Shown in pieces: positions 172-37,459 of a stretch of 64,000 bases of DNA. The position numbers were made by a program, and so were the translations under genes. Under the pieces are notes generated by a model. That model saw nothing but the letters and a program-made list of their open reading frames with translations, ran no database searches and was not told the DNA's origin. Source of the DNA: a virus (lineage: Duplodnaviria; Heunggongvirae; Uroviricota; Caudoviricetes). Within the stretch, counting starts at the first letter, position 1, and every line of letters starts with the position of its first letter. Where the stretch lies: positions 19,682 to 83,681 of IMG/VR virus record IMGVR_UViG_3300049919_000280. The stretch is one strand, 5' to 3'.

Positions 172-247
172 CTCTCAGTCGGTTAGCGGCTATACCACCT
201 CGTTTGGGGCGAGGATTTCGTGTGTTCGAGTCACACCTGAGAGACCA
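172..247 (+). tRNA. tRNA-Pro (anticodon UGG), CCA encoded
   Basis: Hand-folded cloverleaf: acceptor ctctcag/ctgagag; anticodon stem cctcg/cgagg with loop tttgggg; 5-nt variable loop; T arm gtgtg-ttcgagt-cacac; discriminator A then CCA. Confidence 0.7.
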
Positions 248-539
248 GAATTAAGATAGCGACGAGTATGGTCTAGAACAGAAACATCGCCGTAAATCGA
301 GGACTGGTAGGTTAGGCAACCTCGTTAAAAAGCCTACCCCAGATTTTAGAATGGAAGGATGTTGCAGATAAGTTAAAGTATTTGGAACAGTAAAAGAATT
401 CAAAGCAGTCGCATTCGGTTAATATCTGGATGGATGTGTGATGATAGGCAGATGTCAGTCTGCTCACGGTGCCGAAACTCATCGTGCTAGGGAGAAGTTG
501 GATACCGAAATCCGAAGCAAATGGGTTATACTTAACGAA

Positions 540-585
540 AGTGGTCTAATAAAACGGATACTTCCGTACCATATTAGTTGAGTAC
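540..585 (+). repeat. short member of the AAGTGGT ... CGGWTACTTC element family
   Basis: aagtggtctaataaaacggatacttccgtacc shares AAGTGGT and CGGATACTTC with the copies at 3012, 4473, 4634 and 4826. A local hairpin acgga/tccgt can form. Confidence 0.35.
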
Positions 586-780
586 CAAATGTTAAGATTG
601 GTCTAGTGGAATTGATCACCACGAAAACTGAGAGGATGCAGTGTATAAATGCCGACAAAGTTTCAAATATTTTTCGAGTAGGGCATTCTCGTCTAATGTC
701 AAAACGCTAAGACATCCGTAGGGTGTTGATCACGTTAGCGCAATCTGGGTACGATCTTAGACCAGAAAGAATTTGGTAGA

Positions 781-881
781 GTGTAAATTTGTGGAACGGC
801 GAAGTAGGAGAGTCGCGGCTGACTGTAAATCAGTTCCCTCTGGGTGAGTAAATTCGAATTTTACTTCCACAAATTTACACT
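781..881. repeat. 16-bp perfect inverted repeat (gtgtaaatttgtggaa / ttccacaaatttacac) enclosing 69 bp, just upstream of ORF 909
   Basis: Exact reverse-complement arms at 781-796 and 866-881. The enclosed segment contains the hairpin ctga-ctgtaaa-tcag. Confidence 0.55.
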
Positions 882-908
882 TTGGCCACTTCATAACTAG
901 GAGGCATT

Positions 909-1421
909 ATGTCCATGATGTTACGTTTAAACGAAGAATATGGGACAAGATTCCAGACGTTCCGAGAATTCTGCGAACTATCCGAATCGTTCAAACCAAA
1001 ACATACAGAATTCGGAACCGATGGTAAAAACGGAAAGTGGAACGAGAACGAATCCCATCACTGGACTTTCTTCTCTCATAAACCAGATCACCATGCATTC
1101 GTCCATTTGAGTAAGGAGTCTGGAGAATTTGGTTTCGGCACTCATCGTGGAGAATTTACCGACGATGTTGCAAATCACTACGATGAAGAACCAAAACATG
1201 TTGGCGAAGCATTGTCCGTGATGAATAAGGCGTTGCATGTCGCAGTGACGGGGGCAAAGGAGCATAGTCTAAAGCAGATTTTCATTCATGGTGCGAATAA
1301 CCACCTGAAACAAGTTTACGATAAGGCAATAGGAAACAAGTTTCTTCAGAAGCATATGGAAAGTCATGGATTCAAGTATTCGCATTCGTTTAAGGATCGG
1401 CATTACTTTTCTGCAGTATGA
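909..1421 (+). CDS. hypothetical protein (170 aa)
   Basis: Long ORF with the RBS aggagg 7 nt upstream. No family recognised. Confidence 0.7.
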   Translation: MSMMLRLNEEYGTRFQTFREFCELSESFKPKHTEFGTDGKNGKWNENESHHWTFFSHKPDHHAFVHLSKESGEFGFGTHRGEFTDDVANHYDEEPKHVGEALSVMNKALHVAVTGAKEHSLKQIFIHGANNHLKQVYDKAIGNKFLQKHMESHGFKYSHSFKDRHYFSAV

Positions 1422-1426
1422 TCAGT

Positions 1427-1509
1427 GCGGGAGTAGCCTAGAGGTCAGGCACCTGATTTCCAATCAGGCAGACGAGAGTCGCACGCAGGTTCAAATCCTG
1501 TCCCCCGCT
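1427..1509 (+). tRNA. type II tRNA (long variable arm); anticodon loop tttccaa gives UCC by position, so identity is unresolved
   Basis: Acceptor gcgggag/cccccgc with one A-C mismatch; 3-bp D stem gcc/ggc; anticodon stem cctga/tcagg; 16-nt variable arm with a gac-gaga-gtc hairpin; T arm gcagg-ttcaaat-cctgt. No CCA is encoded. Confidence 0.5.
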
Positions 1510-1548
1510 CACGAATTTCTCTTTTAAATCAACGAGTTACTGAAATTG

Positions 1549-1576
1549 TTGCATTCTCCTGTGATGTCTGTATAAT
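1549..1576 (+). promoter_or_regulatory. promoter TTGCAT-N16-TATAAT with upstream box AAATCAACGAGTTAC (1526-1540) and leader CATCGGAAC ... GGAG
   Basis: This is one member of a cassette repeated at least 10 times in the window; see findings. Confidence 0.5.
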
Positions 1577-1611
1577 TCATCACATCGGAACACAAACACA
1601 GGAGAAACATC

Positions 1612-1995
1612 GTGGCCTACGTCAACAAAGAAGTCATCGCAAAGTGTCGTGCTGGTGCAGCGGCAATTCGTAAACAGTATGGCATCAAGATGACGTTTTC
1701 AGTGAATCATGGATCGACTTTGGTTTGTAACATCGCCAGCGGTAATGTCGATTTCTTTGGTCAGATGACCGAGAAGAGTGCATCATATGCTGACGGAAAG
1801 TATTGCCAAGTGAATCATTACCACCTCGATTCCAGTTTCAAGGGAGAGGCTCTGGAATGTCTAGAAGCAATAAAGACTTTGATGCACGTCGATCATTGGG
1901 ATGAGTCCGATATCATGACCGATTATTTTTGCACATCATTTTACGTTAATATCCACGTGGGTAAATGGAACAAACCATACGTTTGTGTGGCATAA
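1612..1995 (+). CDS. hypothetical protein (127 aa), GTG start
   Basis: ORF directly follows the promoter/leader cassette (ggagaaacatcGTG). Confidence 0.55.
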   Translation: MAYVNKEVIAKCRAGAAAIRKQYGIKMTFSVNHGSTLVCNIASGNVDFFGQMTEKSASYADGKYCQVNHYHLDSSFKGEALECLEAIKTLMHVDHWDESDIMTDYFCTSFYVNIHVGKWNKPYVCVA

Positions 1996-2000
1996 GAATC

Positions 2001-2095
2001 AGTCCTGTAGTTTAATGGTAAAACTCCGAGCTTATACCTCGGCATTGCGGCTAGATTGGCTGATGATTTCGGTTCGAATCCGGACGGGACTACCA
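2001..2095 (+). tRNA. tRNA-like gene with a perfect anticodon arm (ccgag-cttatac-ctcgg, anticodon UAU, Ile-like) but about 25 extra nt between the anticodon and T arms; CCA encoded
   Basis: Acceptor agtcctg/cgggact; D arm gttt-aatggta-aaac; T arm ttcgg-ttcgaat-ccgga. At 95 nt it is too long for a normal tRNA. The next ORF starts 2 nt after the CCA. Confidence 0.4.
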
Positions 2096-2096
2096 A

Positions 2097-2366
2097 ATGA
2101 AAGTTGTTCATTGCAAGAAAGACCCTTTCGATATATACATCGGAAGACCAAGTAAATGGGGAAACCCATTTGAGATTGGGAAAGATGGTGATAGGAAAGC
2201 CGTTATATTGAAGTATGCGGCTTGGATACAAAAGCAACCAGACCTTCTTAGAGACATTTCAGAATTGAAGGGCAAGGTTCTTGGTTGTTGGTGCTATCCG
2301 AAAGCGTGTCATGGTGATGTTCTTTTGAGGTTGGCTAATGAATCCAGCTTATCTGATTTTATGTAA
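2097..2366 (+). CDS. DUF4326-like small protein (89 aa)
   Basis: The pattern GNPF ... GCWCYP ... CHGDVL resembles the DUF4326 family, which is often linked to ADP-ribose processing genes. Confidence 0.5.
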   Translation: MKVVHCKKDPFDIYIGRPSKWGNPFEIGKDGDRKAVILKYAAWIQKQPDLLRDISELKGKVLGCWCYPKACHGDVLLRLANESSLSDFM

Positions 2367-2381
2367 AGGGTTGGAGGTAAA

Positions 2382-2891
2382 ATGATATCAGTAAAAGAAA
2401 TATTCGCTAGGCGGCTTCAAGAGATGTTTGATTCTCCTTGGCCGACGACGGAAGATCAGGATGCGACTACTGCTGCCAATGATGACGTAAAGAACAGAAA
2501 ATTGCCGGTGTCTAGTGTTAAGGTATATGATCTTGGCGACGATAACGGTAAGATGATCACATACGTTCGCAACGGTGCATTGGAAGTGCATCATCAGGAC
2601 AATTCTGGGATATCTGGGGTTCTCCATCTAGGGAGAAATAAACCAAATCCAAGATTCGTTGGGACTATGATGCGACATCTTTTGAAGCACGGTCTAGAAA
2701 AGTCACATCCTGTTCGGATCATCGCGAAACAAAAGTTGTTCGTCCGGTATAAGTCTTTGATCGATAAACTGCTGAATCAGAAACTGTATCGGGTGGTTTA
2801 TTCGGAAGAAACTGTGGATGGTCAAGTTGTAGAAACTGCGACTATATATCCAAGGAATAAGATTTCGGAAGAGTATTTTCCGAAGTTTTGA
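2382..2891 (+). CDS. hypothetical protein (169 aa)
   Basis: Long ORF with RBS ggagg. Confidence 0.6.
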   Translation: MISVKEIFARRLQEMFDSPWPTTEDQDATTAANDDVKNRKLPVSSVKVYDLGDDNGKMITYVRNGALEVHHQDNSGISGVLHLGRNKPNPRFVGTMMRHLLKHGLEKSHPVRIIAKQKLFVRYKSLIDKLLNQKLYRVVYSEETVDGQVVETATIYPRNKISEEYFPKF

Positions 2892-2898
2892 AGTTTAT

Positions 2899-3007
2899 GG
2901 GGAGGTAATTCAGTTGGTAGAAGAGTGACAATCGGATAGTTATTGGGCAGGCGTCCTAGCTTGATTGTTGCGTTACGTCGGTGGTTCAAGTCCATCCCTC
3001 CCCACCA
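2899..3007 (+). ncRNA. tRNA-like RNA (109 nt) with acceptor, D and T arms plus CCA, but the anticodon arm is replaced by a 6-bp helix with a 29-nt loop
   Basis: Acceptor ggggagg/cctcccc followed by A-CCA; D loop agttggtag; T arm ggtgg-ttcaagt-ccatc; central helix acaatc/gattgt. No canonical anticodon stem-loop can be drawn. Confidence 0.4.
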
Positions 3008-3011
3008 ATAT

Positions 3012-3080
3012 TGACGTGGTGAAAAGAAATCGGTTACTTCATTTGGCGAAATCAATACCGAATTCTGAATGTTCCCGTCA
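3012..3080 (+). ncRNA. copy of the about 70-nt repeat-family element (gacgtggtg ... cggttacttc ... gaaa ... ataccg ... tgttccc)
   Basis: Near-colinear with the copies at 4634-4713 and 4826-4893. It lies immediately 3' of the tRNA-like gene. Confidence 0.4.
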
Positions 3081-3087
3081 TGAACTA

Positions 3088-3118
3088 CCGCGAAGCTAAA
3101 GACATCGCGGTTTTCTTG
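3088..3118 (+). terminator. rho-independent terminator (ccgcga-N11-tcgcgg followed by TTTTCTT)
   Basis: 6-bp GC-rich stem followed by a T tract. Confidence 0.6.
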
Positions 3119-3309
3119 CTTAAGGGACGATAAAGATGTGTCGTCGTGACATGAAGATTTGTCGCGACGATAATTAAGTAGAAACGGAGTCTATGACTCC
3201 ATCGGCGAACGTGGTAGCCGTTTCTGTGGCCGAAGTGATCACTGGGCAGCAGTAGCTAAGTCAAAATCAACTCTTCCAGATTATCGGACTAAATCTGACC
3301 AAATTCAAT

Positions 3310-3386
3310 GCATCCGTGGTCTAATTGTATAAGGCATCGCACTTCTAATGCGAACGATGGGAGTTAGAATCTCTCCGGGTGCACCA
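3310..3386 (+). tRNA. tRNA-Arg (anticodon UCU), CCA encoded
   Basis: Acceptor gcatccg/cgggtgc with a G-U pair; D arm gtct-aattgtata-aggc; anticodon stem tcgca/tgcga with loop cttctaa; T arm gggag-ttagaat-ctctc. Confidence 0.75.
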
Positions 3387-3420
3387 AAATACGTTGTAAA
3401 ATCAACGAGTTACAAATATC

Positions 3421-3449
3421 TTGCTTCTGCATTCACATGTCTGTATAAT
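3421..3449 (+). promoter_or_regulatory. promoter TTGCTT-N17-TATAAT with upstream AAAATCAACGAGTTAC box (3398-3413)
   Basis: Cassette member. Leader ttacatcgaaacaacaaacggagtaaacatcATG. Confidence 0.55.
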
Positions 3450-3483
3450 TCATTACATCGAAACAACAAACGGAGTAAACATC

Positions 3484-3834
3484 ATGAGCAAAAACATCGG
3501 ATACCACACTCGCCTGATCAGCAACAACGCAACAAAGGTTTGTGGCGGATCGTTTGGTGGCGAGGTTAGTGCTGATACGGTGGCCCGTTTGGTCAAGTCG
3601 CACTTTGATGTCGCAGTCAAGCCTTCTGGCGCTGTTGTTTTTGTTGATAAGAGTGGTCGCGAAGTTTCACTTTATCTCACAGTTGATCCGATGACTACTG
3701 ATATCGGCAAGGTTGCTAAGAAAGAATGGCTTGCTAAACGCAGTGCGGAACAAGACGAGTCTCGCGAAAAAATCGAGAGTCTTATGGCTGGACTTGATGA
3801 TGCTGAAATTATTCGTCGGTTGTCTGATTATTAA
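3484..3834 (+). CDS. hypothetical protein (116 aa)
   Basis: ATG follows the cassette leader. The track ORF 3348 overlaps tRNA-Arg, so the start was moved to 3484. Confidence 0.65.
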   Translation: MSKNIGYHTRLISNNATKVCGGSFGGEVSADTVARLVKSHFDVAVKPSGAVVFVDKSGREVSLYLTVDPMTTDIGKVAKKEWLAKRSAEQDESREKIESLMAGLDDAEIIRRLSDY

Positions 3835-3845
3835 GGAGATTTGCA

Positions 3846-4004
3846 ATGTGCTGCGAAGGATGGTATTACGATGACAAATGTGTCGATGGGGAGTGTCCAG
3901 ACTGCGGAGAACCCACTGTCGACGGCGAAGCCCAATCTGGTTGCCATTATTCGCCTTGCTCCTGCCAGACATGTAACTCTCGCCCGTGCGACGGAAGTTG
4001 TTGA
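3846..4004 (+). CDS. Cys-rich small protein (52 aa)
   Basis: AAGGAG RBS. The product has 11 Cys arranged in CxxC-like pairs. Confidence 0.45.
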   Translation: MCCEGWYYDDKCVDGECPDCGEPTVDGEAQSGCHYSPCSCQTCNSRPCDGSC

Positions 4005-4016
4005 CGGGAGTATAAA

Positions 4017-4142
4017 ATGAATATGCTAACATTAGAAGAAGCGTATGCCGAACATGTACATGTTCATAAAACCTTCGGAATCAAAGTGATGACCATCGAA
4101 CAATTCAGTGAATTTTGGAACCTCTTTCAGGAGACCAAATAA
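4017..4142 (+). CDS. small ORF (41 aa)
   Basis: Weak RBS gggag. Below the ORF-track cutoff. Confidence 0.3.
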   Translation: MNMLTLEEAYAEHVHVHKTFGIKVMTIEQFSEFWNLFQETK

Positions 4143-4437
4143 AGAAGTAGGTGCCAAGCTTATCATTCTGTTCCCTATGGATTGATGGCTTAAACAGGCG
4201 AAAAACACTCTTGATGTAGAGAGCCCATAGCTCAAGAGTGTCCTCATTTAAACTATGGGAGCGACTGTCGTCGTAGGTATGAGTTGCCAAAGACCATCAG
4301 AAAATGATTTAGGGATCATGAGTATGATGACAGAATAAATGGAGAGTTAACTGCTAAGGTAGCAGCGGGACTTGCTAAGTCTCTGGTCCCTGTAATATGG
4401 GATGGGAATCGTGATCTCAGCTCTCCTCCAATATTAC

Positions 4438-4466
4438 TTGACTTTGCAGAGCGATTAATGTAAAAT
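4438..4466 (+). promoter_or_regulatory. strong sigma70-type promoter TTGACT-N17-TAAAAT that fires into element E0
   Basis: Consensus-like hexamers with 17-bp spacing. The predicted start (about 4473) coincides with the conserved gaagtggt motif. Confidence 0.55.
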
Positions 4467-4472
4467 GTTTGA

Positions 4473-4590
4473 AGTGGTAAAGATTCAGCAGTAAAAGTTT
4501 TAATCCGTAGTGTAGGCATCAGTTACTTCAATGCTAATGACGAGGTGGTGGTTCGAATCCACCCAACACAAATCTGATTTGTGTTGAAGC
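4473..4590 (+). ncRNA. candidate small RNA E0: repeat-family motifs plus a perfect tRNA T-arm (ggtgg-ttcgaat-ccacc) and a 3' hairpin caacacaaat-ctg-atttgtgttg
   Basis: No ORF is present. It has its own promoter. It shares gaagtggt and cagttacttc..gctaatga with R1/R2. No acceptor or anticodon arms can be drawn, so it is not a real tRNA. Confidence 0.45.
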
Positions 4591-4633
4591 TCATGGATGA
4601 GCGCGAAAATCTCTGATGCCGTCTGTTCTCGGA

Positions 4634-4713
4634 AATGATTTATTTTAAAGTGGTGTGGATTGCGGTTACTTCCTTATAGACGAAACTTATACCGTGGTCG
4701 TTTGTTCCCTTTA
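4634..4713 (+). ncRNA. repeat-family element R1 (ttttaaagtggtgtgg ... cggttacttcc ... gaaac ... ataccgtggtcg tttgttcccttta)
   Basis: About 75% identical to R2 and to the 3012 copy. Substitutions keep the cggt/accg pairing (acgg/ccgt in R2). Confidence 0.4.
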
Positions 4714-4728
4714 ATTATGATGTATAAT

Positions 4729-4804
4729 TCCCTAGTAGCTCAGCTGGCAGAGCGTGGTGCTGTTAACACCGAGGTCACTCGTTCGAACCGAGTCTGGGGA
4801 GCCA
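4729..4804 (+). tRNA. tRNA-Asn (anticodon GUU), CCA encoded
   Basis: Acceptor tccctag/ctgggga; D arm gctc-agctggca-gagc; anticodon stem tggtg/caccg with loop ctgttaa; T arm actcg-ttcgaac-cgagt. Confidence 0.8.
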
Positions 4805-4825
4805 AAATTTGTAGTAGTTGTGAGT

Positions 4826-4893: not shown

Positions 4894-4908
4894 ACTTGGA
4901 GATTTAAA

Positions 4909-6342: not shown

Positions 6343-6349
6343 AGGTTTA

Positions 6350-8471: not shown

Positions 8472-8490
8472 TCAACTAGGATTAATGGCA

Positions 8491-8524
8491 AAGACGGCTT
8501 CCACGGAAGTCGTCTTTTTGCTTT
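8491..8524 (+). terminator. rho-independent terminator (12-bp stem aagacggcttcc / ggaagtcgtctt, then TTTTTG)
   Basis: Strong hairpin with one G-U pair and a T tract. The next promoter cassette follows directly. Confidence 0.65.
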
Positions 8525-8611
8525 AAAATCAATGAGTTAATAAATGTATTGCGTTTTGTTTGAAATTTTGTTAAAGTTACTCCATCGAAACGAAACATAT
8601 GGAGAAACATC

Positions 8612-8743
8612 ATGAACAGCACCGCAACCTTCGACTGTATTAGCCAGTGTGCAGTATTCTGTGCAGAACTCGTTAAGAATGGCATCGTGTTTCGTATGGA
8701 AACCGTTGGTTCGTCGTTTCGTGTGACCATGACTGGGTATTAA
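8612..8743 (+). CDS. small protein (43 aa)
   Basis: Cassette leader ccatcgaaacgaaacatatggagaaacatcATG. Below the ORF-track cutoff. Confidence 0.5.
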   Translation: MNSTATFDCISQCAVFCAELVKNGIVFRMETVGSSFRVTMTGY

Positions 8744-10957: not shown

Positions 10958-11131
10958 ATGGCTAAAATTCCCGTTATCTTAGAACCACCATACACCTGTT
11001 TATTTTGTGGTATGCCTTCTTGGGTCGATCCGTCTGATCAGTCTCCGCCACCAGATTATTGCCATGAATCCGACCATGGCGATGCCGAGGATTATATCGA
11101 GTACGCGCTTAGTCAAGGACAGGTTGATTGA
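10958..11131 (+). CDS. small protein (57 aa)
   Basis: RBS aggag. The product carries a CxxC pair. Confidence 0.45.
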   Translation: MAKIPVILEPPYTCLFCGMPSWVDPSDQSPPPDYCHESDHGDAEDYIEYALSQGQVD

Positions 11132-11150
11132 AATTAGTGTTGTAAATCAA

Positions 11151-11188
11151 GGAGTTGCGTGATTAGTTGCGTGACTCCTTTTCTTTTG
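11151..11188 (+). terminator. terminator hairpin ggagttgcgtg ... cgtgactcc plus TTTTCTTTTGG, immediately followed by an extended -10 (TGgTAGTAT) and the CATCGAAAC leader
   Basis: This terminator/promoter fusion recurs at 24189 and 37081. Confidence 0.5.
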
Positions 11189-11226
11189 GTAGTATGACTA
11201 CATCGAAACAACGTTGGAGACGCAAA

Positions 11227-11367
11227 ATGTTTAAGGGAGCCTTTTTTGTGTTTGGCGAAAATCCATTTGATGAATCTGACGAAATGGGGTTCATCATTCT
11301 CTCTGAGAAAATGGAAGCTGTTGATTTTACGACTGAATTTCCAGTTGGCTTGATCGAGGTCGAATAA
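11227..11367 (+). CDS. small acidic protein (46 aa)
   Basis: Leader ggagacgcaaaATG. Confidence 0.45.
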   Translation: MFKGAFFVFGENPFDESDEMGFIILSEKMEAVDFTTEFPVGLIEVE

Positions 11368-13669: not shown

Positions 13670-13903
13670 ATGGCAAGGAAGTCCAATTCAAGCAGCAAGG
13701 TCAGCGAAATGATAAAGTGCGGTGATTGTAAATTTCTTGAGTCTGAGGATTCTGAATGGTTGGAGACTCGCGGGGCAAGTTATTGCAGAATCCAACTCCC
13801 GCCACAATTCTGGCATAAGGGTAGTCCCAGAATACACCAACCTGAAAATAGTGGTTGTGACCTAGGTATTGCGAAAGAAACCTCGATAAAAACTCCTTTG
13901 TAA
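13670..13903 (+). CDS. possible small Cys-containing protein (77 aa)
   Basis: An alternative 41-aa ORF 13600-13725 overlaps in another frame. Coding status is uncertain. Confidence 0.3.
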   Translation: MARKSNSSSKVSEMIKCGDCKFLESEDSEWLETRGASYCRIQLPPQFWHKGSPRIHQPENSGCDLGIAKETSIKTPL

Positions 13904-13923
13904 TCAACGAGTTGTGAACCGGC

Positions 13924-13952
13924 TTGACTTGGCACCAAGTCGTCTGTAGAAT
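13924..13952 (+). promoter_or_regulatory. promoter TTGACT-N17-TAGAAT overlapped by the 16-bp palindrome gacttggcaccaagtc (13926-13941); upstream TAATCAACGAGTTGT box
   Basis: The palindrome spans the -35 and spacer, so an operator is possible. Confidence 0.55.
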
Positions 13953-13983
13953 GCATCACATCGAAACCAAACGGAGCAAGACC

Positions 13984-14292
13984 ATGACTTACAAGTTATT
14001 CATTGATGACGAACGGCATCCTGTTACCAATGACTGGGTTATTGCTCGCTCGTCCAAAGAAGCAATCAAATGCGTTCAGGAAAATGGTTTGCCAGATGAA
14101 GTCGCGTTCGATCACGACCTCGGCGGCGATGACACTGTTCGCAGCTTCATTTTCGGTTTTGTGGACTATATTATCGACAATAGACTTGTTATCCCTAAGA
14201 GTTTCAAGTATAGTGTGCATAGCCAGAATCCAGTTGGTGCAGAGTGGATTCGTGGTACCATGAGCACGATCATAGAAGAATTCGGAGAATGA
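13984..14292 (+). CDS. hypothetical protein (102 aa)
   Basis: Cassette leader ends in caagaccATG. The earlier track start lies inside the promoter. Confidence 0.6.
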   Translation: MTYKLFIDDERHPVTNDWVIARSSKEAIKCVQENGLPDEVAFDHDLGGDDTVRSFIFGFVDYIIDNRLVIPKSFKYSVHSQNPVGAEWIRGTMSTIIEEFGE

Positions 14293-19238: not shown

Positions 19239-19376
19239 ATGAAAAAGGAAATTGAACTGCTCGAAAAGGTTGTTATGTATGAGGGTACCGAATACGGTGA
19301 AATGCTTCAGGTATTGCTTCTGTTAGAATCCAAATCAGCGCATTACTCGGAAGCACTTTATGCGGCATATCGGTAA
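19239..19376 (+). CDS. small protein (45 aa) whose last 6 codons lie inside the 112-bp repeat
   Basis: Ends YAAYR*, the same C-terminus as the ORF ending at 20580. Confidence 0.35.
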   Translation: MKKEIELLEKVVMYEGTEYGEMLQVLLLLESKSAHYSEALYAAYR

Positions 19377-19470
19377 AAGTTATTTGTTTTCAATGAGTTA
19401 TATTAATGGTTGACGGATACCCTTGCATTTGTTAATATTCGTTATCGAAAAGTAAACGAGGCAACAAAAT
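19359..19470 (+). repeat. 112-bp perfect direct repeat, copy 1, containing the TCAATGAGTTAT box and the promoter TTGACG-N17-TAATAT
   Basis: Checked base by base as identical to 20563-20674. Confidence 0.9.
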
Positions 19471-20116: not shown

Positions 20117-20580
20117 ATACTTTTATCAAAGCACCTGAGCGGTTCGTGAGAACCACCAGACACGACAAACGACCAACCATATTTCTGGCCGGCGGAATCA
20201 CTGGGTGTCGCAACTGGCAACAAGATGTTGAGAATAAACTCTCTGACAACCTTGATGCTGTAATATTCAATCCTAGACAAGCAGACTTCGATGTTCGCGA
20301 TCCTAAAGGTAGCGAGAAGCAAATTGAATGGGAACATTATCACCTAGAAATTGCCGAATACGTCCTGTTCTGGTTTCCTGCAGAAGGGCAATGCATGATC
20401 ACCCTATTCGAATTGGGTAAGTGCCTTGCCGGTGGAAAGAAGGTGATTCTTGGGTGTCATCCAGACTACGTGAGATATATCGACGTGGTAGTTCAATCGA
20501 GATTGATGCAACCTGATATTATGATTGCCGAAGACCTAGACGAACTTGTTGCCTTTATTGAGTATGCGGCATATCGGTAA
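20113..20580 (+). CDS. nucleoside 2-deoxyribosyltransferase-like protein (155 aa)
   Basis: The pattern IFLAGGITG ... W ... E ... LF resembles the Nuc_deoxyrib_tr-like (DUF4406) fold. Its final codons lie inside repeat copy 2. Confidence 0.5.
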   Translation: MNTFIKAPERFVRTTRHDKRPTIFLAGGITGCRNWQQDVENKLSDNLDAVIFNPRQADFDVRDPKGSEKQIEWEHYHLEIAEYVLFWFPAEGQCMITLFELGKCLAGGKKVILGCHPDYVRYIDVVVQSRLMQPDIMIAEDLDELVAFIEYAAYR

Positions 20581-20674
20581 AAGTTATTTGTTTTCAATGA
20601 GTTATATTAATGGTTGACGGATACCCTTGCATTTGTTAATATTCGTTATCGAAAAGTAAACGAGGCAACAAAAT
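20563..20674 (+). repeat. 112-bp perfect direct repeat, copy 2
   Basis: Identical to 19359-19470. The two copies bracket 1.1 kb carrying the Zn-ribbon, Lar-like, 63-aa and NDT-like genes. Confidence 0.9.
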
Positions 20675-20843
20675 GCGTATTTTTGAATTGGTTGGATTCT
20701 ACGATGGTGGGGAAGAACCAGAATACCGTAAAATATGTGCTTCATTAGAAGAGTCCGAAGCACAAATGCGGATTGAGATTCAAGCTTACACGTATAAAGG
20801 TGAGTGCAAATGGGAGTTTAAGATAAATGAGGTTGAATTATGA
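20673..20843 (+). CDS. small protein (56 aa)
   Basis: ATG directly after the repeat. Confidence 0.4.
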   Translation: MRIFELVGFYDGGEEPEYRKICASLEESEAQMRIEIQAYTYKGECKWEFKINEVEL

Positions 20844-22186: not shown

Positions 22187-22197
22187 GGAGTAATATT

Positions 22198-23956: not shown

Positions 23957-24166
23957 ATGGATCGATTCGATTTAGAGCAGCAGATTATGGAATGTTGGAA
24001 CGTTACTTCTGACATTAAGACATTGGCCGAGGGTGTGCTGGAAACTGATATATCAAAGGATCAGGTGGCTAATGTTCTTATTGGTATGGAAGAACTTTAT
24101 AACATTCGATTCGACAAACTCTTCCGCACATACGAACAGTTGATCCGGAGCCATCAACTCAAGTAA
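23957..24166 (+). CDS. hypothetical protein (69 aa)
   Basis: ORF. Confidence 0.45.
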   Translation: MDRFDLEQQIMECWNVTSDIKTLAEGVLETDISKDQVANVLIGMEELYNIRFDKLFRTYEQLIRSHQLK

Positions 24167-24188
24167 GTTAAAATATACTTAAAAACAA

Positions 24189-24226
24189 GGAGTTACGTGA
24201 TTATTTGCGTAACTCCTTTTCTTTTG
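24189..24226 (+). terminator. terminator ggagttacg-N10-cgtaactcc plus TTTTCTTTTGG, followed by an extended -10 TGgTATTAT and a CCGAAACATCGG leader with no ORF
   Basis: 9-bp perfect stem. The unit that follows (24227-24300) has no start codon, so it may be an orphan leader or small RNA. Confidence 0.6.
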
Positions 24227-24313
24227 GTATTATTGATGTTCCGAAACATCGGTAGTTGTAAAGAAGTGGCGATCTTTCGTAACATCAATAAAATCAACGA
24301 GTTACAATTTGAC

Positions 24314-24342
24314 TTGACTTAAAGAACCGGCATCTGTAGAAT
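24314..24342 (+). promoter_or_regulatory. promoter TTGACT(TTGACT)-N17-TAGAAT with AAAATCAACGAGTTAC box (24290-24305)
   Basis: Cassette member with a tandem -35. Confidence 0.55.
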
Positions 24343-24369
24343 TCATTACATCGAATCAACGCACGGAGA

Positions 24370-24654
24370 ATGACCATGAAAACCAAGACCTACAAGTTTT
24401 ACTCAGATTCCGGCCATGGTTGGCTTGCTGTTAAGCGTACCGAGCTTATCAAGCTTGGCATCCTCGATAAGATCAGTCATTATTCTTATCAGCGTGGTGA
24501 GACAAAATATCTAGAAGAGGATTGCGACATGTCTATCTTCTTCAAGGCAAAGGGGTGGACTGCCGAAGACTTCAAGACTAACGTTGTTGAAGGTAAGTTT
24601 CAGGATCGTTCCCCGATTCGCAGCTATGAGTCGTTTTCAGATAAGGTAGCATAA
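24370..24654 (+). CDS. hypothetical protein (94 aa)
   Basis: Leader cggagaatgaccATG. Confidence 0.55.
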   Translation: MTMKTKTYKFYSDSGHGWLAVKRTELIKLGILDKISHYSYQRGETKYLEEDCDMSIFFKAKGWTAEDFKTNVVEGKFQDRSPIRSYESFSDKVA

Positions 24655-25439: not shown

Positions 25440-25664
25440 ATGCAATATAGAATACGAGAGTCGGCAGATGACGGAAGGTTTTATCCAGAATGTAAGACTT
25501 GGTTCAACCCATGGAAGCCTTTTGATGTTGATCGAAATGGTCTATATACTCCAAGCATTTCGTTCGACTCATTAGCGGAGGCAAGGAATTTCATAACCAC
25601 TAGCACCAAGAAAGATTCGTTCCACGAATACCGCACGTTCAGAAAATCCTTTAAAAATCAATAA
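25440..25664 (+). CDS. hypothetical protein (74 aa)
   Basis: ORF. Confidence 0.5.
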   Translation: MQYRIRESADDGRFYPECKTWFNPWKPFDVDRNGLYTPSISFDSLAEARNFITTSTKKDSFHEYRTFRKSFKNQ

Positions 25665-25739
25665 GTTACGATATCACTTGCGATCTTTACTCCATTTTGT
25701 TAATATAGCCACATCGAAACAAACAACGGAGTAAAGATC

Positions 25740-26162
25740 ATGATCTACGTTCTCAACACTGAAACCGAATGCCGTGCCATCGAGTCAAAGGAAGCCGCTG
25801 ATCGGAAGTGGCTTAATGTTGAATGCCGTCGTGACTGGAATAGCATGGAACAAGCTGCGGATGTCGCACGTAAGCTTTCTGATGCTTCTGGGGAACTTTA
25901 CCTTGCAACGGATTCCGGAGAATGGTGTCTTCCTAGGTACGATGTTATTCGTGCACCGAAAGTTGGCGATGCAGTAAGTTACAGTTTTAATGGTGATTCA
26001 TACCCCTGTGGCCATATCGCAAAGATTAGCGATTCGATGAAGCTTATTACCACAACTGATGGCAAGAAGTTTTATCGCAGAAAGCTTAGTGGTTCGTGGG
26101 TTCGCAATAGCACTTGGTCGCTCATTCAAGGTCATCACAGAGAACAGAATCCGTCGTTCTGA
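25740..26162 (+). CDS. hypothetical protein (140 aa)
   Basis: Cassette leader ggagtaaagatcATG. Confidence 0.6.
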   Translation: MIYVLNTETECRAIESKEAADRKWLNVECRRDWNSMEQAADVARKLSDASGELYLATDSGEWCLPRYDVIRAPKVGDAVSYSFNGDSYPCGHIAKISDSMKLITTTDGKKFYRRKLSGSWVRNSTWSLIQGHHREQNPSF

Positions 26163-26257
26163 AAATCGTTTAGAATCAGTGAGTTAGGAAATAACTTGAC
26201 TCACTGATTATAAAGTGAGAAAATACACTCCTCGAAACAAACACCGGAGCAAAGATC

Positions 26258-26428
26258 ATGATGCCATTCCACGAACAGAGAGACGCGATTGCTTGGGTTC
26301 CTGCCTGCGGTGGTACGGAGACCCCCTTCACGAAGGAAGGGAAGCAATATCAGTACATGTGGAATTACCGCACTGGCGAGCATGCATACTACTGCATCAC
26401 CGACGACATTTTTGTAGATGGGATTTAA
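26258..26428 (+). CDS. small protein (56 aa)
   Basis: Cassette leader ccggagcaaagatcATG. Confidence 0.45.
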   Translation: MMPFHEQRDAIAWVPACGGTETPFTKEGKQYQYMWNYRTGEHAYYCITDDIFVDGI

Positions 26429-28657: not shown

Positions 28658-29301
28658 ATACCGACTTCAAAAAGCGAGTCGTATTTGTTGATATCGACGG
28701 CCCGATGGTTTCGGATCGCACTATCCGATTCGACCCAAAGAATAAGTCGAACCATCCAACTGTTCAGGACTTCATTGCGAAGCATTGTGACGAAGGAGAC
28801 TTTGCCGCTCGTGTAATCACATACATCCACTTCGACACAGTTGCCGTTGGTATGATGAATGAGTTATATGATCAATATCCGTATGAAATGGTGTTGTCGA
28901 GTTCGTGGTTCCATATCATCAACGAGAAGCAAACTCGTGCCCTATTTGAATACAATGGAATTAAAGCTCCATGGCATAAACGATGGAACACCCCTCGCAG
29001 ATTCAATTCCACAAGGGGAGAGGAAATTTCTTGGTGGCTGAAAGAAAATTCGTCGTATGACTACATCGTATTGGACGATCCTAGTAGTTTTCCAGATTCG
29101 TCTGATCCTAATGTTCTTCGCCAATTTGATATCGATCCAGACTATTGCATTATTGTCGATCCTTTCATTGGTCTTGAATATCACCACTTTGACCAGATGA
29201 AGAACATTTTTGCAGGGGAATCAATAGCCGCGAGGCACGGTAAGATGGTGGCAAAGGTGGTAAACGAGCAGATTTACCAAAAAACCCTTACAGATCAGTG
29301 A
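28654..29301 (+). CDS. HAD-like phosphatase (215 aa), GTG start
   Basis: The N-terminal VVFVDIDGPMVSD (DxDG) resembles the phosphatase domain of T4 Pnkp and 5'-nucleotidases. Confidence 0.45.
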   Translation: MNTDFKKRVVFVDIDGPMVSDRTIRFDPKNKSNHPTVQDFIAKHCDEGDFAARVITYIHFDTVAVGMMNELYDQYPYEMVLSSSWFHIINEKQTRALFEYNGIKAPWHKRWNTPRRFNSTRGEEISWWLKENSSYDYIVLDDPSSFPDSSDPNVLRQFDIDPDYCIIVDPFIGLEYHHFDQMKNIFAGESIAARHGKMVAKVVNEQIYQKTLTDQ

Positions 29302-29379
29302 GTTGCAAAGTGTTGTGTTTTGGTTTCGATGCGTGTATAATTCATTACATCGAAACCAACAACGCAAAGTGAGATTAAA

Positions 29380-29631
29380 ATGTTATCAACCAACCAGTTC
29401 AGATTCGATAAGGCTTCTAGAAATTTGGTCGCTTCGGTTAATACGTTTAATGAGAGTTATCTTGGTGGGTTTCCGGTGACCATGGAAATTCATTCGCCGA
29501 AGACCGGTAATGTTTGCCGGTTCTTCATCGATGCCGCCGCTGCTGAGCGCAATGAGTATTGGGATGGTGAAGAAATGCAGTATATTTCTGCGGAAACTGA
29601 TGTCCGCGTTATTTTACATTGTGGAGAGTAA
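29380..29631 (+). CDS. hypothetical protein (83 aa)
   Basis: Cassette leader. Confidence 0.55.
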   Translation: MLSTNQFRFDKASRNLVASVNTFNESYLGGFPVTMEIHSPKTGNVCRFFIDAAAAERNEYWDGEEMQYISAETDVRVILHCGE

Positions 29632-29633
29632 AG

Positions 29634-36892: not shown

Positions 36893-37069
36893 ATGCAATA
36901 TGCATTTATAGCAATGATTTCGGTTTTAATTATTTGGGTTGTTCCACTAGCAGCAATTTGGTCCATCAATACTCTGTTCCCTGTTTTGTCGATTGGAACT
37001 GGTCTTGCAGAATGGGCGGCGATGCTAGTTTTTCTCATGATGTTCGTTCCTAAACCTAGTAAAAGATGA
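36893..37069 (+). CDS. small membrane protein (58 aa)
   Basis: RBS taggag. Two hydrophobic helices. Confidence 0.45.
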   Translation: MQYAFIAMISVLIIWVVPLAAIWSINTLFPVLSIGTGLAEWAAMLVFLMMFVPKPSKR

Positions 37070-37080
37070 TGTAAATCAAG

Positions 37081-37119
37081 GAGTTGCACATTTAGTTGCG
37101 CAACTCCTCTTGTTTTGGT
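37081..37119 (+). terminator. terminator ggagttgc-N12-gcaactcc plus TCTTGTTTTGG, followed by an extended -10 TGgTAATAT and the CATCGAAAC leader
   Basis: Third copy of the terminator/promoter fusion. Confidence 0.55.
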
Positions 37120-37156
37120 AATATAGCTACATCGAAACGAGAAACAAGGAACGGAA

Positions 37157-37459
37157 ATGAACATCAAAAACGAAGCAGCCTACGCAGAGTTCATCCTGAA
37201 AAATGCAGGTGGTGATCGTATCATCGCTAATGGTGATATGCTCACTGAGGCGATGGAAGATGGTTACCTCTACGATGAGTTTGTTCTTGATCAATTTGCA
37301 GACCTTGGTTCGCGGTCTTCTTACTGCCTCGCAGGTTCCGAGTATTCTCTCGGGTATAGCCTGCAATCAGATGCAGAGCAACTGTTCATCGATAACCTCG
37401 ATCTTCAACCGAAGATGCGGGAAATTGCAAAAGGTTTCCTCTGGACTCTGAAAGGATAA
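37157..37459 (+). CDS. hypothetical protein (100 aa)
   Basis: Cassette leader. Confidence 0.55.
   Translation: MNIKNEAAYAEFILKNAGGDRIIANGDMLTEAMEDGYLYDEFVLDQFADLGSRSSYCLAGSEYSLGYSLQSDAEQLFIDNLDLQPKMREIAKGFLWTLKG

What the first reader, a model, noticed from the sequence alone, without database searches (positions are those of the whole stretch)
1526..1611. Reused early-promoter cassette: AATCAACGAGTTA box, -35/-10, ACATCGAAAC leader, GGAG, ATG (at least 10 copies)
Copies with start codons near 1612, 3484, 8612, 13984, 24370, 25740, 26258, 29380, 37157 and 11227 share a 13-bp box AAATCA(A/G)(C/T)GAGTTA about 10 bp upstream of the -35. The -35 is either TTGCNT (resembling a T4 MotA-box TGCTT) or sigma70-like TTGACT. 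They also share a TATAAT-like -10 and a conserved transcribed leader ACATCGAAAC ... ACGGAG. Variants of the box (tTCAATGAGTTAT, AATCAgtGAGTTg) appear in the 112-bp repeat and at 26180 and 29282. A conserved element at about -45 to -60 suggests a binding site for a phage or host transcription factor or an UP-like element. The conserved leader may act at the RNA level (stability or translation). In three copies (11151, 24189, 37081) the -35 is replaced by a rho-independent terminator hairpin and the promoter is an extended -10 (TGgTAnTAT).
Basis: seen in the sequence. Interest (0 to 1): 0.6.

Follow-up and report, generated by a model that had tools for sequence, protein, structure and literature searches.

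The report
Phage early-promoter cassette with IHF site
A module of about 105 bases (a host-type promoter, preceded by what looks like a textbook binding site for the DNA-bending protein IHF and followed by a fixed short leader) is reused in front of a dozen small genes of a divergent T4-like phage. It is a new variant of the known "PeSL" promoter cassettes of T4-like phages, not a new kind of element.

Summary
A profile of the cassette finds 13 copies, all on the + strand between 1.5 and 37.2 kb. Geometry is fixed: box, 9 bp, TTGNNN, 17 bp, TAnnAT, 7 nt, ATCGAAAC, A/C-rich leader, GGAG, start codon 81-85 nt after the box. The window is a divergent T4-like myovirus. A relative (Dda helicase 53% identical) carries the same cassette before unrelated ORFans.

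The cassette is best read as a sigma70-type, presumably early, promoter and 5'UTR module of the PeSL kind.

The new point is the box. AATCAAYGAGTTA fits the IHF core consensus WATCAANNNNTTR. It is 11/13 identical to lambda attP H1 and to the consensus match upstream of the phage Mu early promoter. Most window copies also carry the two other canonical IHF elements: a TT/AA step 9 bp upstream and an A4-6 tract in the 5' half. IHF binding itself is inferred, not shown.

The MotA-box reading is not supported: spacing to the -10 is 16-17 bp, not 11-13. In the hairpin copies the -35 is not replaced; TTGCGT/TTGCGC lies inside the 3' arm.

The leader is unstructured. Its start (C-1, A+1, TCGA) equals that of phage T7 promoter A1. 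The same -10/N7/ATCGAAAC module occurs in unrelated phages, including Serratia phage BF.

Verdict: new variant of a known kind, moderate interest.

The parts
1510..1614 (+). Cassette 1, the flagged copy. It lies directly after tRNA-Gly (1427-1510). Features: IHF-type site about 1510-1543; box core 1527-1539; -35 TTGCAT 1549-1554; -10 TATAAT 1571-1576; inferred start A1584; leader 1584-1611; GGAG 1601-1604; GTG start 1612.
   Evidence: gene call in L377
3383..3486 (+). Cassette 2, directly after tRNA-Arg (3310-3386). Features: box 3400-3412, TTGCTT, 17 bp, TATAAT, TCATTAC, ATCGAAAC, GGAG, ATG 3484.
8490..8614 (+). Cassette 3, with a separate upstream terminator-like hairpin (8490-8517) whose T-run forms the A/T tract of the IHF-type site. 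Features: box 8527-8539, TTGCGT, 17 bp, TGT-TAAAGT, ATG 8612.
11128..11229 (+). Cassette 4, hairpin type. The box (11145-11157) forms the 5' arm of a 14-pair hairpin (11149-11180) followed by TTTTCTTTT. TTGCGT lies in the 3' arm. Then TGG-TAGTAT and ATG 11227.
   Evidence: (z -3.1)
13885..13986 (+). Cassette 5. Features: box 13902-13914, TTGACT, 17 bp, TAGAAT, and a small stem-loop GACTTGG/CCAAGTC over the -35 and spacer. ATG 13984 starts a cREC_REC-domain ORF.
19359..19470 (+). Copy 1 of the perfect 112-bp direct repeat, holding cassette 6 (variant box TTTCAATGAGTTA at 19388, TTGACG, 17 bp, TAATAT, TATCGAAAAG). The repeat ends at the 'AT' that in copy 2 belongs to the start codon.
20563..20675 (+). 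Copy 2 of the 112-bp repeat, holding cassette 7 (box 20592, ATG 20673). The two copies bracket a 1.2-kb block of ORFs.
24166..24270 (+). Cassette 8, a degenerate hairpin type after the NAMPT gene. Features: box variant AAACAAGGAGTTA at 24183, hairpin 24187-24218 with a T-run, TTGCGT, 17 bp, TGG-TATTAT. It has no Shine-Dalgarno sequence or ORF.
   Evidence: (z -5.3)
24275..24378 (+). Cassette 9. Features: box 24292-24304, TTGACT, 17 bp, TAGAAT, ATCGAATC, GGAG, ATG 24376.
25639..25742 (+). Cassette 10. Features: box AATCAATAAGTTA at 25656, TTGCGA, 17 bp, TGT-TAATAT, ATG 25740.
26157..26260 (+). Cassette 11. The box AATCAGTGAGTTA (26174) pairs with the -35 region in a 15-pair stem-loop (26174-26209) that has no T-run. 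Then TTGACT, 17 bp, TGA-GAAAAT, ATG 26258.
   Evidence: (z -6.9)
29276..29382 (+). Cassette 12. Features: box GATCAGTGAGTTG at 29293, preceded by AAAAAA 8 bp upstream (23/35 identical to lambda H'). An inverted repeat (29321-29331 with 29348-29358) pairs an anti-leader with the leader around the -10. ATG 29380.
   Evidence: (z -3.6)
37057..37159 (+). Cassette 13, hairpin type. Features: box 37074-37086, hairpin 37078-37109, TTGCGC, 17 bp, TGG-TAATAT, ATG 37157.
   Evidence: (z -2.9)

Best explanation
The element is a composite expression cassette of about 105 bp. A divergent T4-like phage places it in front of small, mostly ORFan genes in its + strand gene block (1.5-37 kb), which resembles the early/hyperplastic regions of T4-like genomes.

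Anatomy, 5' to 3', numbered from the inferred transcription start:
1. A canonical IHF-type site of about 34 bp centred near -57. It comprises an A4-6 tract at about -73 to -66, a TT/AA step at -62/-61, the box AATCAA-N-G-A-S-TTA at -57 to -45, and an AAA at -42 to -40.
2. A sigma70-type -35 (TTGNNN) exactly 9 bp after the box.
3. A 17-bp spacer.
4. A TAnnAT -10, often with TGn.
5. Seven bases, then the start-site context C(-1)A(+1)TCGAAAC.
6. A G-poor, unstructured leader of about 27 nt ending in GGAG, then 7-9 nt, then ATG.

Proposed mechanism:
- Host RNA polymerase holoenzyme uses these promoters, most likely straight after infection.
- Host IHF bound at the box makes a U-turn immediately upstream of the -35 element. 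This wraps upstream A/T-rich DNA back onto the polymerase (the alpha C-terminal domain) and raises promoter strength. It may also insulate the promoter from the preceding gene or tRNA.
- The fixed start-site context and unstructured leader give uniform promoter escape and translation initiation.
- In a subset of copies, the sequence between the box and the -10 has evolved into a stem-loop. This stem-loop terminates or attenuates read-through from upstream, which is the promoter-plus-stem-loop (PeSL) design.
- The repeated cassettes also offer short homologies for modular gene shuffling.

Shown: the repeats, their geometry, their block-wise conservation across phages, the match to all four IHF site elements, and the stem-loops.

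Inferred: promoter activity, the start site, early timing, IHF binding and its positive effect, and recombination.
For: Repeat family and geometry:
- The family and its fixed geometry are shown.

T4-like context:
- The window encodes gp5, gp6, gp48 and Dda homologues and a gp33-like coactivator.
- It carries seven tRNAs.

Conservation by blocks, not by recency:
- The 12 window copies are only 35-67% identical pairwise, with no relation to genomic distance.
- Box, TTG, -10, the 15-nt TCATYACATCGAAAC and GGAG are near-invariant.
- The relative L121 shares homologous proteins at 28-67% amino-acid identity (Dda 53%). It has at least 8 copies with the same blocks and an identical TATAATTCATTACATCGAAAC.
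- The genes directly behind the cassettes have no homologue in the other phage.
- L144 (8 copies in 3.8 kb) and L146 show the same architecture.

IHF reading:
- The box equals WATCAANNNNTTR in 9 window copies, all on the + strand.
- It is 11/13 identical to lambda attP H1, AATCAACTACTTA.
- It is 11/13 identical to TATCAACGCGTTA, which lies upstream of, and in the same orientation as, the phage Mu early region.
- The L144 variant is 12/13 identical to H1.
- The canonical IHF elements are listed in PMC1874591.
- A TT/AA step lies exactly 9 bp 5' of the AA of WATCAA in 18 of 31 copies (9 of 12 in the window; 16% expected).
- An A4-6 or T4-5 run lies in the 5' half in 9 of 12 window copies (7% background).
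- In-register identity to the 35-bp lambda H' site is 17.75/35 on average, against 9.3 +/- 2.6 for background.
- The 9-bp gap to the -35 is invariant across four lineages; TTG sits at +22 to +24 in 30 of 31 copies.
- No HU/IHF homologue is encoded in the window or the related loci, so a host protein is implied.

Stem-loops:
- Five of 12 copies have z between -2.9 and -6.9.
- In the hairpin copies 92.9% of cells are paired, against 40-57% in slid controls.

Start site and leader:
- The -10/N7/C-A-T-C-G-A arrangement is identical to T7 A1 around its annotated start.
- The leaders are unstructured.

Shuffling:
- A perfect 112-bp repeat ends at the start codon and brackets a 1.2-kb block.

Known precedent:
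- PeSLs (PMC2839356 and PMC4122927).
- IHF plus a distant UP element at lambda pL (Giladi 1998, as cited in PMC1784095).
Against: - No binding or transcript data exist.
- The host is unknown; similarity of the phage tRNA-Thr to E. coli tRNAs is uninformative.
- Positions N2-N4 of the box are conserved (G 25/31, A 28/31, C/G 31/31). The IHF consensus leaves them free, so another or an additional reader of the sequence is possible.
- The bare consensus is weakly enriched in the window: 13 against 5.2 expected, and 1 of 100 shuffles reaches 13.
- An IHF dimer centred at -57 would reach to about -40. It would then overlap the proximal UP subsite, where an AAA is conserved.
- In phage Mu the site lies about 24 bp further upstream, by my reading of the sequence.
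- The L144 and L146 copies mostly lack the A-tract, and some boxes deviate in WATCAA (TTTCAA, AAACAA).
- Other phage lineages with the same core promoter and leader carry an unrelated element, TTATGACCNGTATWA, at the same place. That would also fit lineage-specific factors.
- Generic promoter scans are not enriched over shuffles.
- Early timing is inferred only by analogy with T4-like phages.
Confidence: 0.55

Rival explanations
1. The box is the docking site of a dedicated sequence-specific activator or repressor other than IHF. This could be a virion-delivered or very early phage protein, or another host factor. It would bind as a monomer at a fixed distance from the -35, in class-I-like geometry. 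The match to the IHF consensus would then be fortuitous.
For: - Positions N2-N4 (G, A, C/G) are conserved beyond the IHF consensus.
- Related core promoters in other phage lineages carry a different 15-mer at the same place.
- The same 11-bp arm, TCAAYGRSTTA, occurs as a 25-bp palindrome in at least 120 viral contigs. That is the format of a dimeric regulator's operator.
Against: - No gene family is recurrently adjacent to the palindrome, and none is shared with the window.
- If these are early promoters, the factor must be present before any phage gene is expressed.
- The extra IHF elements (A-tract, 9-bp step) would be unexplained.
- The site is asymmetric and occurs singly.
Confidence: 0.2
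2. The cassettes are conserved mainly as recombination substrates (PeSL-type modular shuffling, possibly IHF-assisted). The box matters for DNA exchange rather than for transcription.
For: - A perfect 112-bp direct repeat brackets a 1.2-kb ORF block and ends at the start codon.
- Cassette-linked genes are ORFans that differ between relatives, while the cassettes persist.
- PeSL papers show mini-circles formed between such motifs.
- The -10/leader module is shared by otherwise unrelated phages.
Against: - Copies are only 35-67% identical, with a longest shared run of about 23 nt. That is poor substrate for homologous exchange.
- Conservation is block-wise at positions with promoter meaning.
- Strict spacing to the -35 is not needed for recombination.
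- No pair of closely related genomes was available to show indels at cassettes; the Logan contigs are 100% identical to the window.
Confidence: 0.1
3. The box is an unusual distal UP-element subsite, read directly by the alpha C-terminal domain of RNA polymerase (possibly after phage-induced ADP-ribosylation), with no accessory protein.
For: - It occupies -57 to -45, the place of the distal UP subsite.
- T4-like early promoters are known to have A-rich UP-like tracts (PMC1524935).
- The AAA at -42 to -40 fits the proximal subsite.
Against: - The box has an invariant C, a near-invariant G and a strict C/G position. UP elements are A/T tracts read through the minor groove.
- The conservation pattern (two blocks 4 bp apart) is that of IHF sites.
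Confidence: 0.08
4. The box is only the relic or 5' arm of the preceding gene's terminator hairpin. Its conservation reflects common descent of terminator-promoter units.
For: In 4 copies (11145, 24183, 37074, 26174) the box is the 5' arm of a strong stem-loop.
Against: - Seven of 12 copies have no significant fold there.
- The box is the best conserved upstream block in four lineages, while its would-be partner sequence is not conserved.
- At 8527 a separate terminator lies upstream of the box.
Confidence: 0.04
5. These are MotA/AsiA-type middle promoters, with TTGCNT acting as a MotA box.
For: One copy reads TTGCTT (3421-3426). AsiA or MotA could lie outside the 64-kb window.
Against: - Spacing to the -10 is 16-17 bp against the 11-13 bp required.
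- The hexamer alternates with TTGACT in the same register.
- TGCTT is absent from 12 of 13 copies.
- No MotA or AsiA Pfam hits are on record among called genes over window 1-42 kb.
- Most divergent T4-likes lack MotA.
Confidence: 0.02

Closest known systems
PeSLs (promoter-early stem-loop cassettes) of T4-like phages RB49/phi1, PST/T4 and nt-1/KVP40 (Arbiol 2010, PMC2839356; Comeau 2014, PMC4122927)
   Same: - A repeated intergenic module of about 100 bp in a T4-like genome.
- A sigma70-like -35/N17/-10 promoter.
- A Shine-Dalgarno sequence and start codon at the 3' end.
- Stem-loops placed upstream of, over, or between the promoter boxes, some of them terminator-like.
- Location in front of ORFans in variable regions.
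- Degenerate 'half' copies.
- Direct repeats bracketing gene blocks.
   Different: [quoted passage not shown] Here a specific 13-bp box with IHF-site architecture sits at a fixed 9-bp distance.
- Only 5 of 12 copies have a significant stem-loop.
- A 15-nt discriminator and start-site block is invariant and is shared with unrelated phages.
- Recombination or mini-circles could not be tested.
Phage Mu early promoter Pe with its upstream IHF site, and lambda pL with IHF plus a distant UP element (Giladi 1998)
   Same: - A phage early promoter used by host sigma70 polymerase, with a consensus IHF site upstream.
- The site is oriented with TTR towards the promoter.
- The Mu sequence TATCAACGCGTTA is 11/13 identical to the box.
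   Different: - Mu and lambda each have a single site, part of a lysis/lysogeny switch.
- By my reading of the sequence, the Mu site lies about 24 bp further upstream (W near -81 against -57).
- Here the site is built into a reused cassette present in at least 13 copies per 37 kb of a lytic T4-like phage.
- That IHF activates Pe and pL is from the literature and my memory, not tested here.
Canonical IHF sites (lambda attP H', H1, H2)
   Same: - WATCAA, then N4, then TTR.
- An A-tract 8 bp upstream.
- TT/AA steps 9 bp apart.
- Copy 29293 is 23/35 identical to H' in register.
   Different: - N2-N4 are conserved in the cassette family.
- The function here is presumably transcriptional, not recombinational.
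- Binding is untested.
T4-type early promoters with UP-like A-tracts (Nolan 2006, PMC1524935) and phage T7 promoter A1
   Same: - Strong host-polymerase promoters before early genes, novel ORFs and tRNA regions.
- An A-rich stretch at -40 to -44.
- -10/N7/C-A(+1)-T-C-G-A is identical to T7 A1.
   Different: - The -35 is TTGNNN rather than GTTTAC.
- The distal A-tract is replaced by the box.
Reused promoter cassettes of Serratia phage BF (Eneladusvirus)
   Same: TTGCAA, N17, TATAAT, N7, ATCGAAAC, GGAG, ATG occurs before at least 8 of the first 21 genes.
   Different: - The upstream conserved element is different (AAATTCAAATGAAAAAGTAC).
- It is an unrelated jumbo phage.
- The resemblance was found here and was not looked up in the literature.

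Membership tests
PeSL (promoter-early stem-loop) cassettes | Repeated intergenic motif of about 100 bp in a T4-like phage genome | tested here: met
   13 copies. T4-like hallmark genes are present.
PeSL (promoter-early stem-loop) cassettes | Sigma70-like -35/N17/-10 promoter, with a Shine-Dalgarno sequence and start codon at the 3' end | tested here: met
   TTGNNN, 17 bp, TAnnAT in 12 of 13 copies. GGAG-type Shine-Dalgarno sequence and a start codon 81-85 nt from the box in 11 of 13. Promoter activity itself was not tested.
PeSL (promoter-early stem-loop) cassettes | Stable stem-loop within or next to the promoter, acting as terminator or attenuator | tested here: inconclusive
   Five of 12 copies have z <= -2.9, three of them with a T-run. 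Seven of 12 have no significant fold. One copy has a separate upstream terminator.
PeSL (promoter-early stem-loop) cassettes | Preferential location before ORFans in variable regions | tested here: met
   Eight of 9 cassette-driven ORFs have no Pfam family reaching its curated cut-off. Genes behind cassettes have no homologue in the relative L121.
PeSL (promoter-early stem-loop) cassettes | Recombination between copies (indels at cassettes between close relatives, mini-circles) | not testable with these tools
   Only indirect evidence: a perfect 112-bp repeat brackets 1.2 kb. No close relative was found.
IHF binding site | WATCAA followed 4 bp later by TTR | tested here: met
   Exact in 9 of 13 window copies and one mismatch in the rest. 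Exact in 7 of 8 copies in L121.
IHF binding site | Two AA/TT steps 9 bp apart (proline intercalation sites) | tested here: met
   Present in 18 of 31 copies (9 of 12 in the window) against 16% expected.
IHF binding site | [quoted passage not shown] | tested here: inconclusive
   Nine of 12 window copies and 4 of 8 L121 copies have an A4-6 or T4-5 run (7% background). None of the 11 copies in L144 and L146 has one.
IHF binding site | Specific binding and bending by IHF | not testable with these tools
   Needs a gel shift or footprint.
MotA-dependent middle promoter | MotA box (a/t)(a/t)(a/t)TGCTTtA lying 11-13 bp from the -10, with no -35 element | tested here: not met
   The hexamer lies 16-17 bp from the -10 and alternates with TTGACT. 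TGCTT occurs in 1 of 13 copies.
MotA-dependent middle promoter | motA and asiA genes in the genome | tested here: inconclusive
   No such Pfam hits are on record for genes over window 1-42 kb. The genome is incomplete and the precomputed hits are partial.
UP element | A/T-only tracts at -57 to -47 and -46 to -38 | tested here: not met
   The distal position holds a box with an invariant C, a near-invariant G and a strict C/G position. Only the proximal AAA (-42 to -40) fits.

The most novel reading that the evidence does not exclude
The box and its palindromic relative, TAACTCRTTGA-AAA-TCAAYGAGTTA, may define an undescribed, widespread class of architectural-protein (IHF/HU-type) docking sites in phage DNA. 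The palindrome occurs in at least 120 unrelated viral contigs, with its TT and AA steps 9 bp apart. In this T4-like clade, a half-site has been welded to a portable promoter-leader module. The whole early programme would then depend on a host nucleoid protein. The cassettes would also double as IHF-assisted exchange points that move promoter-gene units between unrelated phages.
Probability: 0.12. Interest if true: 0.7.

Novelty: new variant of a known kind. Interest (0 to 1): 0.45.

Why it matters
- If IHF really binds, the immediate-early programme of a whole clade of T4-like phages would be wired to a growth-phase-dependent host nucleoid protein through a site built into every cassette. Such a dependence is not part of the T4 paradigm (UP-like tracts, Alt/Mod, MotA/AsiA).
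- This would be directly testable with ihf mutants and footprints.
- The cassette shows that PeSL-type modules extend to very divergent T4-like phages.
- Their parts are separable. The same -10, start-site and leader block is combined with different upstream elements in different phage lineages.
- The cassette is a compact, natural, standardised expression unit of about 105 bp: terminator option, architectural site, promoter, unstructured 5'UTR.

Tried and rejected
Searches for relatives:
- No close relative in isolated phages (megablast of 8 kb).
- None in IMG/VR by protein patterns or by the 21-mer leader.
- The exact-protein look-up returned only 100%-identical Logan contigs. Indels at cassettes between close relatives therefore could not be examined.

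Scans and RNA families:
- Generic sigma70 and terminator scans are no better than shuffles overall.
- The T4 late-promoter motif TATAAATA is not enriched.
- Rfam has no family for the cassette, the leader or the palindrome.
- Leader folds are weaker than shuffles, so a structured RNA element was rejected.

Candidate factors:
- An HU/IHF profile search of the window, related loci and 120 palindrome loci found nothing.
- The search for a gene family adjacent to the palindrome, or shared with the window, found none.

Literature and host:
- A literature search for the box or palindrome sequence returned only irrelevant primer hits.
- Host inference from tRNA-Thr similarity to E. coli is uninformative at 79.5% identity.
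- The scan of bacterial genomes with the 18-mer gave a mixed set, mostly Bacteroidota. Some hits are coding and some likely chance, so it was not used as evidence.

Other:
- Recent duplication or gene conversion as the cause of conservation was rejected: identity is 35-67% and shows no distance effect.
Full report

Yes.

- The 14-mer box AAATCARYGAGTTA with up to 2 mismatches occurs 17 times against 2.8 expected. None of 100 shuffles reaches that number.
- The leader ACATCGAAAC with up to 1 mismatch occurs 17 times against 5.4 expected.
- Aligning the copies shows one unit of fixed length.
- An nhmmer profile built from 11 copies recovers those 11 and two diverged ones that lie in a perfect 112-bp direct repeat. 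All 13 are on the + strand, between 1.5 and 37.2 kb.
- Geometry is tight. The gap from box to -35 is 9 bp in 10 of 13 copies. The spacer is 17 bp in 12 of 13. The first base of the core (W) lies 45 bp before the -10 in 10 of 13, and 81-85 nt before the start codon.
- In this window the leader never appears in a cassette-like context without the box.

- The start codon of the 24292 copy is 24376.
- The 24183 copy has no ORF.
- The hairpin copies still have a TTGCGT/TTGCGC hexamer in the -35 register.

**2. Context**

- The window encodes homologues of T4 gp5, gp6, gp48 and Dda, plus NAMPT. The best hits in isolated phages are below 45% identity.
- It also encodes a gp33-like late coactivator and seven tRNAs.
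- It is therefore a divergent T4-like myovirus, and no close relative exists among isolates.
- The cassettes lie in the + strand block of small genes. Two of them directly follow tRNA genes.
- Eight of nine cassette-driven ORFs have no Pfam family reaching its curated cut-off.

**3. Relatives**

- The Dda protein has a 53%-identical homologue on a 132.7-kb JGI contig.
- The 21 kb held from that contig (L121) contains at least 8 copies of the same cassette.
- TATAATTCATTACATCGAAAC is identical in these copies, and the box reads AATCAATG(A/G)CTTA. The spacers between the blocks are unrelated.
- Homologous proteins of the two phages are 28-67% identical and rearranged. The genes immediately behind the cassettes have no homologue in the other phage.
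- A metagenome scan with a degenerate -10/leader pattern found further carriers. L144 has 8 cassettes in 3.8 kb and L146 has 3, both with the same box type. Both L144 and L132 encode homologues of window cassette genes.
- Within the window the copies are only 35-67% identical pairwise, and identity is unrelated to genomic distance.
- Conservation is therefore block-wise and old. It is not the trace of recent duplication, apart from the 112-bp repeat.

**4. What the box is**

A matrix of 31 copies from four lineages gives A-A-T-C-A-A, a free position, then G (25/31), A (28/31), C/G, then T-T-A. TTG of the -35 sits at +22 to +24 in 30 of 31 copies.

This is the IHF core consensus WATCAANNNNTTR.
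- Nine of the 13 exact matches to that consensus in the window are cassette boxes, all on the + strand.
- I checked real sites. Lambda attP contains AATCAACTACTTA, TATCAATATATTA and TATCAATTTGTTG. From established knowledge these are the H1, H2 and H' sites. H' is preceded by AAAAAA 8 bp upstream.
- The box is 11/13 identical to H1. The L144 variant is 12/13 identical.
- Phage Mu has TATCAACGCGTTA (11/13 identical) between its repressor gene and ner, in the orientation of early transcription. Its role in activating Pe is from the literature as I remember it.

PMC1874591 lists four canonical IHF elements: WATCAA, TTR 4 bp 3' of it, two AA steps 9 bp apart, and a 4-6 A tract in the 5' half. The last two were tested independently of the pattern used to anchor the copies.
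- A TT/AA step lies exactly 9 bp upstream of the AA of WATCAA in 18 of 31 copies (9 of 12 in the window; 16% expected).
- An A4-6 or T4-5 run lies at -16 to -8 relative to W in 9 of 12 window copies, against 7% background.
- In register, the 12 window copies average 17.75/35 identities with the lambda H' 35-mer. Background is 9.3 +/- 2.6. Excluding the nine consensus positions the figures are 10.7/26 against 6.9 +/- 2.3.
- No HU/IHF homologue is encoded in the window or in related loci, so the reader of the site would be a host protein.
- With TTG at -35, W is at -57 and the site would span about -74 to -40.

Caveats:
- N2-N4 are conserved beyond the consensus.
- The L144 and L146 copies mostly lack the A-tract.
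- A site this close to the -35 is unusual. By my reading, Mu's is about 24 bp further upstream.
- The host is unknown.

**5. Not a terminator arm, not a MotA box**

- RNA folding of box-to--10 segments gives strong stem-loops in five copies: 11145, 24183, 26174, 29293 and 37074, with z from -2.9 to -6.9. The other seven have z >= -0.6.
- In three copies the box is the 5' arm of a 14-pair hairpin followed by a T-run. In that hairpin 92.9% of cells are paired, against 40-57% for slid controls, and one pair shows a compensatory change. The 3' arm contains the -35-like hexamer.
- At 8527 a separate terminator lies upstream of the box.
- This is the PeSL design, with stem-loops upstream of, over, or between the promoter boxes. 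But the box is conserved whether or not it pairs.
- The MotA box lies 11-13 bp from the -10. Here the hexamer lies 16-17 bp away and alternates with TTGACT.
- No MotA or AsiA Pfam hit is on record for called genes over window 1-42 kb.

**6. The leader**

- Ten leader-plus-ORF-start segments fold no better than shuffles, with a mean z of about +0.8.
- Rfam has no match.
- The 7-nt gap after the -10, and the sequence C-A-T-C-G-A, equal those of phage T7 promoter A1 around its annotated start at 498. The inferred start is therefore the A of ATCGAAAC, which gives a G-poor 5'UTR of about 27 nt.
- The same TATAAT/N7/ATCGAAAC/GGAG/ATG module precedes at least 8 of the first 21 genes of Serratia phage BF, with a different upstream element.
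- It also occurs in metagenomic phages that are not T4-like by PHROG hits. There a different 15-mer, TTATGACCNGTATWA, occupies the place of the box.
- The core promoter and leader are thus a widely shared optimum, or a mobile module. The upstream element is the lineage-specific part.

**7. An unexpected relative of the box**

Flanks are unrelated.
- In about 70% of 107 distinct contexts it is the right half of a 25-bp palindrome, TAA-S-Y-C-R-TTGA-AAA-TCAA-Y-G-R-S-TTA. It is often present in 2-3 tandem copies.
- The arm has the same degeneracy as the cassette box. In the palindrome the TT and AA steps are exactly 9 bp apart, which is the intercalation geometry of IHF/HU-type proteins.
- No neighbouring gene family recurs, none is shared with the window, and no HU-like gene is present.
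- I could not identify the palindrome in the literature. Genome hits are mixed.
- It fits an architectural-protein site, but it also keeps open a different dimeric regulator.

**8. Verdict**

- The cassette is a sigma70-type, presumably early, promoter and 5'UTR module of the PeSL kind, in a very divergent T4-like phage.
- Its distinguishing feature is a position-locked site with the full architecture of an IHF site.
- Promoter function, start site, timing and IHF binding are all inferred.
- Novelty: new variant of a known kind. Interest: moderate.

Noticed in passing
IMG/VR loci L005-L255, e.g. L150:1496-1513, L051, L052, L060: A 25-bp palindrome, TAACTCRTTGA-AAA-TCAAYGAGTTA, whose right arm equals the cassette box. 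It occurs in at least 120 unrelated viral contigs, often as 2-3 tandem copies in intergenic regions. No gene family is recurrently adjacent. I did not find it in the literature by sequence.
   Followed up: partly
window 3835-6421: ORF 4909-6342 is a Ro60 homologue (TROVE plus vWA_Ro60 domains), lying between tRNA-Asn and tRNA-Thr. The ORF-poor stretch 3835-4728 upstream holds a weak tRNA/tmRNA-like piece at 4547-4588 (E = 1e-3). This could be a Y-RNA-like partner.
   Followed up: partly
window 39937-40251: A gp33-like late-transcription coactivator ORF (39982-40251) lies behind a perfect TTGACA/17/TG-TATAAT promoter (39937-39965) that has neither the box nor the leader. A second consensus-like promoter lies at 39397-39425. 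The phage therefore has at least two classes of sigma70-like promoters.
   Followed up: partly
L124, L131, L133, L138, L140, L141, L145, L147 (metagenome contigs): These loci have the same -10, start site, leader and GGAG module. They carry a different conserved 15-mer, TTATGACC(C/A)GTAT(A/T)A, 11 bp upstream of the -35, and a small palindrome in the spacer. L133 and L140 do not look T4-like by PHROG hits.
   Followed up: partly
L379 (Serratia phage BF, KY630187, 1-11891): This cultured jumbo phage reuses its own cassette before many of its first genes: AAATTCAAATGAAAAAGTAC, TTGCAA, N17, TATAAT, N7, ATCGAAAC, GGAG, ATG. It shares the -10/N7/ATCGAAAC block with the window.
   Followed up: partly
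window 172-6421: ARAGORN calls seven tRNAs, several of them unusually long (Gly 84 nt, Tyr 85 nt, Ile-TAT 95 nt). On the whole window, Rfam reaches its gathering score for only four of them; a fifth (tRNA-Asn) appears in a local scan.
   Followed up: no
window 9445-10254, 13984-14292, 21383-23946, 29619-30677: The window encodes a set of RNA-repair and NAD-salvage genes: a Thg1-like protein, a cREC_REC domain protein, an RNA ligase, PRPP synthetase and NAMPT. Part of this set is shared with the relative L121, in a different order.
   Followed up: no
window 39575-39590: Two overlapping exact IHF-consensus matches on opposite strands (AATCAAGCGATTGATT) lie inside ORF 39468-39710.
   Followed up: no
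L123, L148, L376, L377 (Logan run SRR35532964): An independent assembly of the same phage is 100% identical to the window. It is broken into contigs ending at window 3109, 17901 and 20645. The last break falls inside the second copy of the 112-bp repeat.
   Followed up: no
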